DNA from: Thiobacillus sp. | GTDB lineage: Bacteria; Pseudomonadota; Gammaproteobacteria; Burkholderiales; Thiobacillaceae | Assembly (NCBI GenBank): GCA_018263115.1 | Contig: JADFDC010000007.1 | Location: 36,638 to 100,637 of the forward strand | Direction of reading: 5' to 3' | Length of the DNA: 64,000 bases | In this document: piece by piece, positions 40,933-42,502 of the stretch | How positions within the stretch are numbered: position 1 is the first letter of the stretch | How the letters are laid out: each line of letters opens with the position of its first letter | Notes under the pieces: generated by a model | Told to the model about the DNA's origin: nothing | Seen by the model: only the letters and a program-made list of their open reading frames with translations | The model's database searches: none | Made by a program: the position numbers and the translations under genes

Positions 40933-40960
40933 TTGACTAATTTGATCAAGAATATATATT
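40933..40960 (+). promoter_or_regulatory. candidate sigma-70 promoter for the 41032 gene
   Basis: TTGACT - 16 nt - TATATT in an AT-rich spacer, about 70 nt upstream of the ATG. Confidence 0.4.
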
Positions 40961-41031
40961 AGCCATTAATGAAATGCTTATGACTTAATAAGTATTTCTT
41001 ATCCTGAATTTTTCTCGAAAGGAGCATGAAC

Positions 41032-41487
41032 ATGAGCGGACTTATTCCCGGTTTCAATGTCGACGGCGTGGTTACCATTAACCGCGTCATTCTCAAACCA
41101 GAGTACAGCGTTGACGACCTGCAGGAGCGCGTGGCCTACCTGTGCGAAAACGTCAAAACCTACCATTCCGATACCGGCTTTGTCGGCGGTTTCGTCGCGC
41201 TGAATTCCGGCGCAGTTTCCAACGAAGGTTCAACCGTCGGCCAGGCGGTGGGCAGCCCACTGGCTGGCAAAGAGGCGCTGATCGTCACCTTCTGGCAATC
41301 CTTTGATGACCACGAAAAATCGCACAAGAGCGAAACCTTCCAGCCCCTGTTCAAACAGGTTCTGGAACTGTGCGAAAACGGCAACGAGGAAATTGCCTAC
41401 AGCATGCTCTGGAGCGGCAAGGCATACAGCGCCGAGGAGGCAGCCGAGGCGAGGGCCGTGAAAGAGAAATATTCGAAAGCTGCGTAA
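41032..41487 (+). CDS. hypothetical protein (151 aa), possibly a dimeric alpha/beta-barrel (ABM-like) fold
   Basis: AAGGAG Shine-Dalgarno sequence 7 nt before ATG 41032. The segment ALIVTFWQSFDDHEKSH resembles the ABM/Dabb signature strand-helix. No family recognised with confidence. Confidence 0.6.
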   Translation: MSGLIPGFNVDGVVTINRVILKPEYSVDDLQERVAYLCENVKTYHSDTGFVGGFVALNSGAVSNEGSTVGQAVGSPLAGKEALIVTFWQSFDDHEKSHKSETFQPLFKQVLELCENGNEEIAYSMLWSGKAYSAEEAAEARAVKEKYSKAA

Positions 41488-41571
41488 GCCGTTTGGGGGA
41501 GGCTAACCTGGCCGCAAGGCCGGGTTAAGCGTAGCGGCCGACACCAAAACGACCCAATTGCCTATCTTGGT

Positions 41572-41643
41572 GGCAAGGCATACAGCGCCGAAGAAGCGGC
41601 GGAAGCACGAGCGGTGAAGGAAAAATACTCAAAGGCGGCGTAA
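41572..41643 (+). repeat. in-frame duplicate of the last 23 codons plus stop of the 41032-41487 gene
   Basis: Encodes GKAYSAEEAAEARAVKEKYSKAA*, identical to the gene's C-terminus (41416-41487). There are 15 nt differences in 14 codons, all synonymous. Confidence 0.7.
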
Positions 41644-41652
41644 TTCAGCATG

Positions 41653-41682
41653 AAAAAACGGCGCATCAGGCGCCGTTTTTTT
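41653..41682. terminator. bidirectional intrinsic terminator shared by convergent genes
   Basis: AAAAAACGGCGC-ATCAG-GCGCCGTTTTTTT. The stop codon of the K+ channel gene lies in the loop. Confidence 0.75.
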
Positions 41683-42502
41683 CTGAATCTGATTCAGCGC
41701 CCTGCCAGTAGCCGCCACACTTGCTTGTCAGCTGCGCCATCATCTCGCGCAACTCAACCATCTCCTGACGGAGAATCTTGATTTCCTGGTGCATCTCGCG
41801 CCGTATCAATTTTTCCTCCTTGCCGATGAAGAAGGCGGCGATGGAGGCGGTGACCAGCGACATGACGCCGTAGGTCAGCACAATCACTGCGCCGGCAAAC
41901 AGCCGGGCAGGGCCGGTGGTGGGCACCAGATCGCCATAGCCCACAGTCAGGCCGCTGATGAAAGCTAGCCAGACGCCATCCCAGTAGGAGTGAATGGTGG
42001 GCTCCAGCCAGTAAAATCCGCCACCGGCCATGAGCATGAGTCCAAATCCGATCAACAGGATGTAGGGAGTGGAGCCTGGGGTTAGCGCGCGAAGAGAATG
42101 TGCCAGCCGGGTAATCAAGAGGCCGACGACGGCCAGCCGCAAGAGCCTCAACAATGCAGAAAGATCCGTGGGCAGATGCGGCATCAGGACTGATGTGGCT
42201 GTCACAAAGACAATGGTTACCGAAAGCCAGTTGTACGCGAGATACCGCTTCTTCTGTCTGCACACCGATAACATGATGATGAGTTCGACCATAAAGGTCA
42301 GCATCACGACTGCATCCATGATCCAGCCGATGCGGTTGAGAGGAGGTTCTTCAGACAGTACGGTAAGGTAAAACGCCGGGATCGCCAGCAGCGTGGCGAT
42401 CATCACCGGCCAATGGAGCCGCTTTTCCCATTCATAGGCCTGTGGCGTATCGTGCGGCGGTACGCCCGCCAATCCCAAAGCGAGCCGGGTATTCAGTGAC
42501 AT
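41666..42502 (-). CDS. voltage-sensor-type potassium channel (ion transport family)
   Basis: Selectivity filter TVGYGD and an S4-like arginine-repeat helix LLRLLRLAVVGLLITRL, with multiple TM segments. Confidence 0.85.
   Translation of the reverse strand: MSLNTRLALGLAGVPPHDTPQAYEWEKRLHWPVMIATLLAIPAFYLTVLSEEPPLNRIGWIMDAVVMLTFMVELIIMLSVCRQKKRYLAYNWLSVTIVFVTATSVLMPHLPTDLSALLRLLRLAVVGLLITRLAHSLRALTPGSTPYILLIGFGLMLMAGGGFYWLEPTIHSYWDGVWLAFISGLTVGYGDLVPTTGPARLFAGAVIVLTYGVMSLVTASIAAFFIGKEEKLIRREMHQEIKILRQEMVELREMMAQLTSKCGGYWQGAESDSEKNGA

What the first reader, a model, noticed from the sequence alone, without database searches (positions are those of the whole stretch)
41416..41643. Last 23 codons of an unknown gene duplicated in frame 84 nt past its stop, with only synonymous differences
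Seen in sequence:
- 41416-41487 (end of the 151-aa gene) and 41572-41643 both encode GKAYSAEEAAEARAVKEKYSKAA plus TAA.
- The first 18 nt of the two copies are identical. The rest differs at 15 positions in 14 codons, and every change is synonymous.
- The 84-nt spacer has no stop codon and keeps copy 2 in the reading frame of the gene. It also has no in-frame ATG, GTG or TTG, so copy 2 is translatable only by reading through TAA at 41485.
- The spacer contains a CUGGCC-GCAA-GGCCGG hairpin with a GNRA loop.
- The real terminator follows copy 2, not copy 1.

Inference, with three possible explanations:
1. A footprint of allelic replacement or cassette insertion, in which an incoming divergent allele displaced a resident one and left the resident 3' end.
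2. A 3'-end duplication made by a site-specific integration event that used the identical 18-mer.
3. A functional read-through extension, which is less likely.

A purely synonymous pattern cannot arise from neutral decay of a tandem duplication.
Basis: partly seen in the sequence, partly recalled or inferred. Interest (0 to 1): 0.6.

Follow-up and report, generated by a model that had tools for sequence, protein, structure and literature searches.

The report
Gene-tail-duplicating hairpin element insertion
The repeated gene end is real: a tiny DNA element that encodes no protein, and is common across Betaproteobacteria, sits inside the last codons of the gene, supplies a silently re-spelled replacement ending and pushes the original ending downstream, so the gene is not broken.

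Summary
The interpretation changes because the 84-nt spacer is not unique DNA.

**What the spacer is**
- It is one copy (window 41490-41550, 58.7 bits) of a roughly 66-nt three-way-junction repeat.
- The repeat occurs 1 to more than 80 times per genome in 31 of 36 genomes of this family, and across Betaproteobacteria. Rfam has no family for it.

**Family-wide pattern**
- The core follows a gene's stop and is followed by a second copy of the gene's tail.
- That copy starts at a GAAAAY site.
- A short inverted copy of the target lies 5' of the core.
- Over 77 such pairs, pN/pS is 0.12.

**This locus**
- Against the closest relative that lacks the element, this window has a clean 156-nt insertion flanked by the identical 18-mer.
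- Copy 2 plus the terminator is the native end.
- Copy 1's last 17 codons, the stop and the core are the insert.

**Reading**
- The differences are silent because two working alleles were joined by recombination.
- Copy 2 is a recently displaced, probably untranslated relic.
- Read-through is unlikely as a general mechanism.
- The insertion enzyme, if there is one, is unknown.

This scan met the same family before on other DNA (argF, ftsW, metK, mraY), and similar systems in archaea.

The parts
40933..40960 (+). Promoter-like site upstream of the gene
   Evidence: TTGACT, 16-nt spacer, TATATT; 10 of 12 matches. This is a consensus match only.
41026..41487 (+). Host gene, 153 aa: a small protein with faint likeness to the N-terminal half of sulfur oxygenase/reductase
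   Evidence: ORF. Pfam SOR, E 0.014 and NCBIfam SulOxRed, E 0.0024; both are far below the curated cut-offs. Orthologues were found in 25 of the 36 other genomes of the family searched.
41374..41379 (+). GAAAAC (Glu-Asn codons): the family's target and junction hexamer, where tail homology begins in relatives
   Evidence: In 44 loci the consensus before the duplicated segment is G-A-(A/C)-A-A-(C/T). In L013, L019 and L022 the copy starts here.
41376..41382 (+). AAACGGC: 5' strand of the long-range helix that encloses the working tail and its stop
   Evidence: It is complementary to GCCGTTT at 41488-41494 (sequence). In relatives the arm is 10-11 bp (CGTTGCCGTTT).
41416..41433 (+). 18-mer, copy 1: the recombination joint, identical to 41572-41589 and to the orthologous 18 nt of L003
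41434..41487 (+). Working tail: 17 codons plus TAA, the translated copy and the more divergent allele
   Evidence: It differs from L003's tail at 15 of 51 positions (third positions 13 of 17), against 40 of 114 third positions in the gene body. The best match among 150 species of the family is 82-86%.
41488..41494 (+). GCCGTTT: inverted copy of the target (the arm), 3' strand of the long-range helix
   Evidence: Sequence.
41490..41550 (+). Core of the structured repeat (three-way junction: P1, GGC/GCC, P2 hairpin 41505-41526, mini-hairpin GCGUAGC)
   Evidence: Covariance model R1: 58.7 bits, E 6.5e-16, the only hit in 64 kb. The fold is supported by covariation. GGCTAAC lies at 41501-41507 and GTTAAGC at 41524-41530.
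41546..41571 (+). AAAAC plus the decayed 5' part of the tail copy (encodes NDPIAYLG where the gene has NGNEEIAYSMLWS)
   Evidence: There are indels and substitutions relative to 41375-41415.
41572..41643 (+). Displaced native tail: the 18-mer, 17 codons and TAA
   Evidence: It is collinear with L003's tail and terminator. Its first 35 nt are identical to L003, and it differs at 8 of 51 positions, a rate like that of the gene body.
41653..41683 (.). Hairpin like a bidirectional intrinsic terminator, shared with the convergent channel gene (41666-42502, minus strand)
   Evidence: Sequence; fold; terminator-type partial Rfam alignments. It is conserved in L003. The simple scan did not call it.

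Best explanation
**What it is (shown)**
- The spacer is one copy of a structured repeat that encodes no protein and is found across Betaproteobacteria.
- The core is about 66 nt and folds as a three-way junction with conserved GGCUAAC and GUUAAGC.
- Relative to the nearest relative that lacks the element, G000 carries a 156-nt insertion inside the gene, bounded by the identical 18-mer.
- The insertion consists of a replacement tail (17 codons plus TAA), a short arm complementary to the gene's GAAAAC-GGC, the core, and a decayed copy of the tail's 5' part.
- The native tail and terminator follow it.

**How it works (inferred)**
- The gene now ends at the first stop, so copy 1 is the working tail.
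- Copy 2 is the displaced native tail. It is transcribed in the 3' UTR but not translated.
- The two tails differ only silently because each was, until recently, the translated end of a working allele.
- They were joined by recombination within the 18-mer. Either the replacement tail arrived together with the element, or it was exchanged later, using the conserved gene segment and the conserved core as homology arms.
- Recurrent recombination or gene conversion within the intact block keeps copy 2 looking functional, while the 5' part outside that block decays.

**Unknown**
- How the core first reaches a new gene, makes the arm and copies the tail is not known.
- No resident reverse transcriptase or Y1 transposase tracks its abundance.
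For: **Element family**
- The pattern GGCTAAC-N8-30-GTTAAGC gives 2 to 35 hits per genome, against 0 for the reversed control.
- Covariation on 24 copies: 92% of cells paired, 14 pairs with changes on both sides, 0 of 500 shuffles as good, and 26-43% paired when the structure is slid.
- The covariance-model census finds it in 31 of 36 genomes of the family and in 9 of 24 other families of the order.
- Named hosts include Thiobacillus, Gallionella, Methylophilaceae, Rhodocyclaceae, Paraburkholderia and Cupriavidus.

**Signature of insertion**
- 100 of 141 segments after a core copy the end of the upstream gene.
- In 41 of 77 pairs the homology starts exactly at the AAAAC.
- Over the 77 pairs pS is 0.46, pN is 0.055 and pN/pS is 0.12.
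- The target consensus is GA(A/C)AA(C/T).
- The arm is complementary to the gene for a mean of 5.6 nt beyond GTTT, against 0.85 when partners are permuted.

**This locus**
- The 156-nt gap against L003 has collinear flanks and a shared terminator.
- Copy 2 differs from L003's tail at 8 of 51 positions, and copy 1 at 15 of 51. Copy 2 is nearer in 6 of 9 relatives and never farther.
- In L013 the downstream copy carries the sister species' allele while the working copy does not.
- L008 has the same E-to-Q change in both copies, which shows gene conversion.
- The third copy in L014 has decayed.

**Reality of the arrangement**
- An independent DNA contig is identical.
- Contigs from RNA libraries span gene, spacer and copy 2.
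- No joint skips the spacer.
Against: - No donor allele close to copy 1 was found in 150 species of the family; the best match is 82-86%.
- The core variants of G000, L006, L007 and L008 follow the gene tree. The element may therefore be old at this locus, which requires repeated refreshing of copy 2.
- The tails of this gene diverge about twice as fast as the gene body even in genomes without the element. Copy 1 is therefore only a moderate outlier.
- The sister species L013 and L014 carry different core subtypes with similar arms. An earlier check of this scan on look-alike systems found that cargo did not travel with the core. The tail may therefore be copied locally.
- Family-wide, the copy's frame is open across the element more often than the other frames (29 of 41 loci, against 11 and 8). 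This leaves room for some translation of copies.
Confidence: 0.6

Rival explanations
1. Local duplication with later divergence. The element copied the resident tail when it inserted, so copy 1 equalled copy 2. Since then the translated copy has gathered silent changes unusually fast, through recombination-associated mutation or selection to lose homology and so resist deletion. Frequent gene conversion has kept copy 2 free of damaging changes.
For: - Arms and tails look target-derived at every locus.
- The sister species L013 and L014 have different cores with the same arms.
- Identical or near-identical copy pairs exist in L008, L006, L019 and L022.
- The units in the L048 array are mosaics.
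- Copy 1 is the more divergent copy.
- No donor was found.
Against: - Fifteen silent changes and no replacement would need nearly all changes to fall on the translated copy within a time too short for copy 2 to decay.
- The rough split of changes, about 4-6 on copy 2, predicts 3-4 replacements; none is seen (my estimate).
- Silent differences are at the level of random codon choice but not above it (258 observed, 397 expected at saturation, overall). There is therefore no sign of selection for unlikeness.
Confidence: 0.2
2. Copy 2 is translated and kept by selection. The routes could be read-through of TAA at 41485 (a 52-aa extension), a relay reading frame, or removal of the insert from the RNA.
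For: - In G000 the spacer is in frame and open.
- Family-wide, the copy's frame is stop-free across the element in 29 of 41 loci.
- The stop-to-stop distance is 2 mod 3 in 35 of 51 pairs.
- 23 of 41 working stops overlap a start codon.
- pN/pS is low across the family.
Against: - In the same genus (L006-L008) the copy is in another frame.
- G000 has no start codon in the spacer and no downstream gene to couple to; a terminator follows.
- A relay frame needs only openness, not a conserved peptide.
- No joint skipping the insert appeared in the contigs of three RNA libraries.
- Some distal copies do decay: L014, L071 and L149.
Confidence: 0.08
3. The structured core and the long-range helix are a host-beneficial 3' UTR device, for example an mRNA stabiliser or a switch that senses translation. 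The tail copy would be a by-product. This does not exclude the other explanations.
For: - The fold is strand-specific: G-U pairs occur on the strand that is sense to the gene.
- The arm covaries with the coding sequence between Paraburkholderia and Cupriavidus.
- Contigs from RNA libraries cover the region.
Against: - The element is present or absent among close relatives: L003-L005 lack it.
- Copy number ranges from 0 to more than 80.
- A MITE in G024 carries a copy as a passenger.
- It sits beside a dead tRNA half.
- Folding the G000 unit gives z = -0.5.
Confidence: 0.1
4. Assembly or strain-mixing artefact that joined two strain variants of the gene end.
For: G000 is a draft of 58 contigs.
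Against: - An independent metagenome contig is identical.
- Many runs from separate studies hold the stretch.
- The same architecture occurs in a complete one-contig genome, G017.
Confidence: 0.01

Closest known systems
WHO homing elements at FBA1 in Torulaspora and Lachancea yeasts (Coughlan et al. 2020, PMC7282813, abstract read)
   Same: - Each integration replaces the host gene's 3' end with a copy carried by the element.
- Repeated events leave arrays of displaced 3' ends downstream.
- The gene keeps working.
   Different: - WHO elements encode their own endonuclease and are kilobases long.
- This element is about 66 nt plus cargo, has no ORF, and carries an arm complementary to its target.
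- No cleavage enzyme is known for it.
Integrative elements whose attachment site carries the 3' end of the target gene (islands at tRNA and tmRNA genes; e14 and phage 21 in icd). Established knowledge, not tested here.
   Same: - Campbell-type architecture: the gene body is joined to an element-borne end, and the native end is displaced beyond the element.
- The crossover lies in a short identical core; here that is the 18-mer.
- Tandem accretion occurs.
   Different: - Those elements encode an integrase and are kilobases long.
- Here the whole insert is 156 nt, and no integrase is linked to it.
MIRUs of mycobacteria
   Same: Small repeats between operon genes whose short reading frames link the upstream stop to the downstream start. 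Compare the relay frames of this family at the ftsW-murG junction.
   Different: - MIRUs are not reported to duplicate gene tails or to carry target-complementary arms.
- In G000 there is no downstream gene.
BRE, the Beta-proteobacterial repeat element (Hot et al. 2011, PMC3110155)
   Same: - A GC-rich repeat of about 75-91 bp found in many Betaproteobacteria.
- It often occurs in tandem and varies in copy number.
- It is transcribed, and some copies overlap the ends of ORFs.
   Different: - The published BRE sequences hold neither GGCTAAC nor GTTAAGC in either orientation.
- Tail duplication was not described for BRE.
Mobile ORFs with carboxy-terminal duplication in fungal mitochondrial genes (Allomyces atp6). 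From my own knowledge and earlier notes of this scan; not checked here.
   Same: The insert brings a foreign C-terminal coding end, and the native end remains downstream as a relic.
   Different: Those inserts carry an endonuclease ORF and occur in organelles.
REP/REPIN and IS200/IS605-derived palindromic elements
   Same: Small, structured, dispersed and non-autonomous, lying near the 3' ends of genes.
   Different: - Y1 transposase genes do not track the copy number of this element.
- REPs do not duplicate coding tails.

Membership tests
   Window 41490-41550: 58.7 bits, E 6.5e-16, full length. This copy was one of the 24 used to build the model, so the match is partly by construction. The pattern hit is independent of the model.
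   Stop at 41485-41487, core at 41490-41550, AAAAC at 41546-41550, gene hexamer at 41374-41379. The first 14 codons of the copy have decayed.
   GCCGTTT (41488-41494) pairs with AAACGGC (41376-41382), 7 bp. This is shorter than the 10-11 bp seen in L013 and L022.
Any Rfam 15 family | Score at or near a family's gathering threshold | tested here: not met
   Nothing was found on the spacer at E up to 10. Nothing was found on canonical copies in 7 loci at gathering score.
BRE (Hot et al. 2011) | Sequence likeness to the published BRE copies | tested here: not met
   The core motifs are absent from the supplement's sequence list in both orientations. Read by eye, only the GGCCGCGGGCCGCC and A/T-run ends look faintly alike.
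IS200/IS605-type palindrome-associated elements | Co-occurrence with a Y1 (HUH) transposase | tested here: not met
   G031 (48 copies), G026 (29), G039 (27) and G000 have no PF01797 match. G018 and G032 (0 copies) do have one.
Retroelement (non-autonomous, mobilised by reverse transcriptase) | Co-occurrence with a reverse transcriptase | tested here: not met
   G031, G036, G026, G013 and G000 have copies but no PF00078 match.
Integrase-borne integrative element | A recombinase gene within the inserted DNA | tested here: not met
   The insert is 156 nt with no ORF of its own.
Programmed stop-codon read-through extension | The extension is in frame and open, and this is conserved in relatives | tested here: not met
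   It is in frame and open in G000. In L006-L008 and L013 the copy is in another frame. Family-wide, 10 of 51 pairs are in frame and 3 of those are open.
Diversity-generating retroelement (VR/TR pair) | Differences confined to adenines of one copy; reverse transcriptase nearby | tested here: not met
   The differences run in both directions and include C/G and T/G changes. G000 has no RT.

The most novel reading that the evidence does not exclude
The core is a self-addressing, protein-less mobile element. It reads its target by base pairing (GAAAAY plus about 5-14 nt). It then uses only host replication or recombination functions, or an enzyme not yet recognised, to write itself into a gene's last codons together with a fresh copy of the gene's end. 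It would move as a unit of about 145 nt whose single helix closes both the core and the cargo, that is, a circular or rolling intermediate. That would be a mode of DNA insertion into genes not described in bacteria.
Probability: 0.25. Interest if true: 0.92.

Novelty: new variant of a known kind. Interest (0 to 1): 0.74.

Why it matters
- It shows how a very small selfish or semi-selfish DNA can live inside essential genes (ftsW, acs, accB, dapD, recR, atpG, a tRNA) without harming them.
- It explains a recurrent annotation oddity: ghost gene ends and silent-only repeats.
- It marks hotspots where gene ends are exchanged between lineages.
- If targeting is by base pairing and needs no dedicated protein, the mechanism would be new. 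It could be of practical interest for scar-tolerant insertion at gene ends.
- The family is abundant in environmentally important sulfur-, iron- and methyl-oxidising Betaproteobacteria, yet it has no Rfam entry and I found no published description.

Tried and rejected
- **Rfam:** searched on the spacer and on canonical copies; nothing but terminator look-alikes and one unrelated cobalamin riboswitch.
- **Enzyme candidates:** reverse transcriptase and Y1 transposase do not correlate with copy number.
- **Donor search for copy 1:** none closer than 82-86% in 150 species of the family.
- **Fold of the G000 unit (gene tail plus core):** z = -0.5, so the cargo has no rod-like structure. The z of -3.7 for spacer, copy 2 and terminator is driven by the terminator and P2.
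- **ORF-based test of orientation to genes:** useless in this GC-rich DNA, since 49% of random positions pass.
- **Selection for maximal unlikeness of the two copies:** not supported. Silent differences reach, but do not exceed, random codon choice.
- **DGR-type adenine mutagenesis:** rejected from the spectrum of differences.
- **Integron attC likeness (RYYYAAC / GTTRRRY):** considered from memory. The R''-R' distance of about 29 nt is too short, and the copies are dispersed rather than in cassettes. Dropped without a formal test.
- **P3 length as a reading-frame constraint:** only a bias (91, 34 and 11 copies in the three mod-3 classes).
- **Literature:** searches by motif and by description gave only BRE and general reviews of repeats.
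- **Terminator scan tool:** did not call the hairpin after copy 2.
- **Empty-site form:** no contig joint at 41433/41590 in the four runs laid. Contigs drop rare variants, so this is not evidence of absence.

Full report
**1. Observation**

Window 41416-41487 and 41572-41643 both encode GKAYSAEEAAEARAVKEKYSKAA followed by TAA. The first 18 nt are identical. The rest differs at 15 positions in 14 codons, and every difference is synonymous. The 84-nt spacer is in frame, has no stop and has no ATG, GTG or TTG codon.

The gene (41026-41487, 153 aa) has only a faint likeness to sulfur oxygenase/reductase. A hairpin of A6-CGGCGC-ATCAG-GCGCCG-T7 follows copy 2 and nothing similar follows copy 1. The simple terminator scan did not call it.

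The arrangement is not an assembly artefact:
- An independent groundwater metagenome contig matches 41277-41800 without a difference.
- Ten DNA runs from seven studies hold most of the stretch; three of them may be the sample of origin.

**2. The spacer is a dispersed structured repeat**

Relatives of the gene gave the first clue.
- Extra tail copies lie downstream of the orthologue in three other species of the genus (L006-L008) and in four genomes of other genera (L013, L014, L019, L022; up to two extra copies).
- The copies are not always in the gene's frame.
- They always come with a conserved spacer motif.

The motif GGCTAAC-hairpin-GTTAAGC occurs 2 to 35 times per genome in six genomes, against 0 for the reversed control. 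It often forms arrays with a period of about 143-148 nt behind unrelated genes: acs-, dapD-, accB-, recR- and ftsW-like genes and a tRNA-Ser.

An alignment of 24 copies supports a three-way junction made of:
- P1, GUUUCGGC/GCCAAAAC;
- an invariant GGC/GCC helix;
- P2, AAC-hairpin-GUU;
- a small hairpin P3.

On that alignment 92% of cells are paired, 14 pairs change on both sides, 0 of 500 shuffles do as well, and slid controls pair at 26-43%. G-U pairs fall on the strand that is sense to the gene.

The covariance model finds the element in 31 of 36 genomes of the family (1 to more than 80 copies) and in 9 of 24 other families of the order. An exact-pattern scan names Thiobacillus, Gallionella, Sideroxydans, Sulfuricella, Methylophilaceae, Rhodocyclaceae, Paraburkholderia, Cupriavidus, Hylemonella and others.

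The window's copy scores 58.7 bits and is the only one in 64 kb. Rfam 15 has no matching family. The published Beta-proteobacterial repeat element BRE is a different sequence.

**3. Family-wide signature**

In 147 non-redundant arrays:
- 100 of 141 segments after a core repeat the end of the upstream gene.
- In 41 of 77 comparisons the homology starts exactly at the AAAAC that ends the core.
- In many comparisons it stops exactly at the stop codon.

The 77 comparisons give 354 synonymous and 142 non-synonymous differences: pS 0.46, pN 0.055, pN/pS 0.12. The peptide is identical in 35 of them. The finding's silent-only pattern is therefore the rule for this element, not a peculiarity of this gene.

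The gene sequence before the duplicated part is GA(A/C)AA(C/T). The outer base pairs of P1 change with that hexamer, for example GACAAT with ATTGC and CCACAAT. So the outer pairs are target-derived.

The DNA just 5' of the core is complementary to the gene's own sequence after the hexamer for a mean of 5.6 nt (up to 14). When partners are permuted the mean is 0.85. This long-range helix encloses the working tail and its stop. It covaries between Paraburkholderia and Cupriavidus at ftsW.

In a homogeneous array, or in a circle, this helix and P1 are the same helix. That reading is my inference.

**4. This locus**

Aligned with L003, the nearest relative that lacks the element, G000 shows one clean 156-nt insertion with collinear flanks. 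The gene body runs up to TGGAGC. After the gap come the 18-mer, copy 2, the same terminator and the same convergent gene. Copy 2 is therefore the orthologue of the native tail.

The divergence figures agree with that:
- Copy 2 differs from L003's tail at 8 of 51 positions, like the gene body (48 of 384).
- Copy 1's 17 codons differ at 15 of 51 positions, with third positions at 13 of 17 against 40 of 114 in the body.
- Copy 2 is nearer than copy 1 to 6 of 9 relatives and never farther.

The stretch after the core (41551-41571) is a decayed remnant of the tail's first 14 codons. The sharp change from decayed to intact sequence at the 18-mer marks a recombination boundary.

This is the layout left by a single crossover in the 18-mer between the gene and a unit made of tail, stop, arm, core and the 5' part of the tail. 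It is the same layout as integrative elements that carry the 3' end of their target, but on a miniature scale (inference).

**5. Why the differences are only silent**

Species of this genus already differ at 7-18 of 57 tail positions, with 0-3 amino-acid changes. Fifteen silent differences are therefore what two working alleles of different lineages show.

Neutral decay of a local duplicate is rejected. With about 4-6 of the changes on an untranslated copy, 3-4 replacements are expected and none is seen (my estimate).

Other genomes support exchange of working alleles:
- In L013 the downstream copy carries the sister species' allele (6 of 57) and the working copy does not (11-12 of 57).
- In L008 both copies share an E-to-Q change, which is conversion.
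- In L014 the third copy has an internal stop, which is decay.
- A strain variant seen in an RNA library has 9 changes clustered in copy 2, including TCA to AGC (Ser to Ser) and one K to M, and none in copy 1. That is a recombination tract, not point mutation.

Silent differences reach the level of random codon choice (14 against 13.2 here) but not more family-wide (258 against 397). There is therefore no sign of selection for unlikeness.

**6. Is copy 2 translated?**

Probably not in this window.
- TAA is followed by an open in-frame spacer, but the same-genus relatives have the copy in another frame.
- There is no start codon and no downstream gene.

Contigs from RNA libraries span gene, spacer and copy 2, and none skips the insert. 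Contigs cannot show level or ends, and DNA carry-over in those libraries is possible.

Family-wide there is an unexplained bias:
- The stop-to-stop distance is 2 mod 3 in 35 of 51 pairs.
- The copy's frame is stop-free across the element in 29 of 41 loci, against 11 and 8 for the other frames.
- 23 of 41 working stops overlap a start codon.

This fits relay reading frames that preserve translational coupling, for example between ftsW and murG. MIRUs are said to do the same. It does not require a conserved peptide.

**7. Mechanism of spread**

The mechanism is unknown.
- Neither RVT_1 nor Y1_Tnp tracks copy number.
- The sister species L013 and L014 carry different core subtypes with like arms, so arms and perhaps tails can be made locally.
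- No donor of copy 1 was found.

I therefore leave open whether the replacement tail came with the core or was exchanged later, using the conserved gene segment and the conserved core as homology arms.

**8. Earlier notes of this scan**

The same betaproteobacterial family was met before at argF, ftsW, sucD, metK and mraY. Look-alike systems were met in DPANN archaea and CPR bacteria. I reached the GAAAAY target, the inverted arm, the tail copy and the relay frame on my own data before reading those notes.

- the empty-site alignment;
- the native-versus-working tail test;
- the family-wide dN/dS and frame statistics;
- the read evidence.

One earlier check warns that in related systems the cargo did not travel with the core. 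I have kept that caveat.

Noticed in passing
G000 contig C16:24176-24235 (minus strand), outside the window: The same core sits beside tRNA-Ser(UGA), with the junction at the anticodon-loop sequence CTTGAAAAC|CGGCAG. A dead 5' half of the tRNA lies upstream of the core. The same site is occupied in L047 (two units) and L104.
   Followed up: partly
G000 contig C3, about 500-600, outside the window: A degenerate core lies between atpG and atpD. The atpG end AAAV-stop is present twice, with synonymous differences and a different stop codon.
   Followed up: no
L034:1376-1612 and L039:1376-1612 (genome G024): Seventeen or more identical cores in G024 are passengers of a 237-bp MITE with terminal inverted repeats TAGTACGCCAACCCATAAGTT. 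This inflates that genome's copy count.
   Followed up: partly
51 loci across L001-L170: The distance from the working stop to the copy's stop is 2 mod 3 in 35 of 51 pairs. The copy's frame is open across the element in 29 of 41 loci. 23 of 41 working stops are NTGA with an overlapping start codon. This points to relay reading frames.
   Followed up: partly
window 41470-41484 and orthologues L003-L028: The protein family ends in YSKAA, YAKAA, YALAA or YAMAA, which resembles the end of the SsrA degradation tag. The protein might be a ClpXP substrate.
   Followed up: no
window 41607-41637: A strain variant in one RNA library (X16, record 5) has 9 changes clustered in copy 2 (six silent codon changes including TCA to AGC, and one K to M) and none in copy 1.
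   Followed up: partly
L014:1067-1500 (minus strand): The sister species of L013 carries a shorter core subtype (GGCTCAT...GTGATGC, without P3) at the same gene site, an internal terminator-like hairpin, and three tail copies. The last copy has decayed.
   Followed up: partly
L043 and L051: Runs of N (withheld bases) interrupt two arrays, so their unit counts are lower bounds.
   Followed up: no
G000 contig C58:27576-27633: A well-scoring core lies between two genes with no recognisable tail copy. It may be an old or differently made insertion.
   Followed up: no
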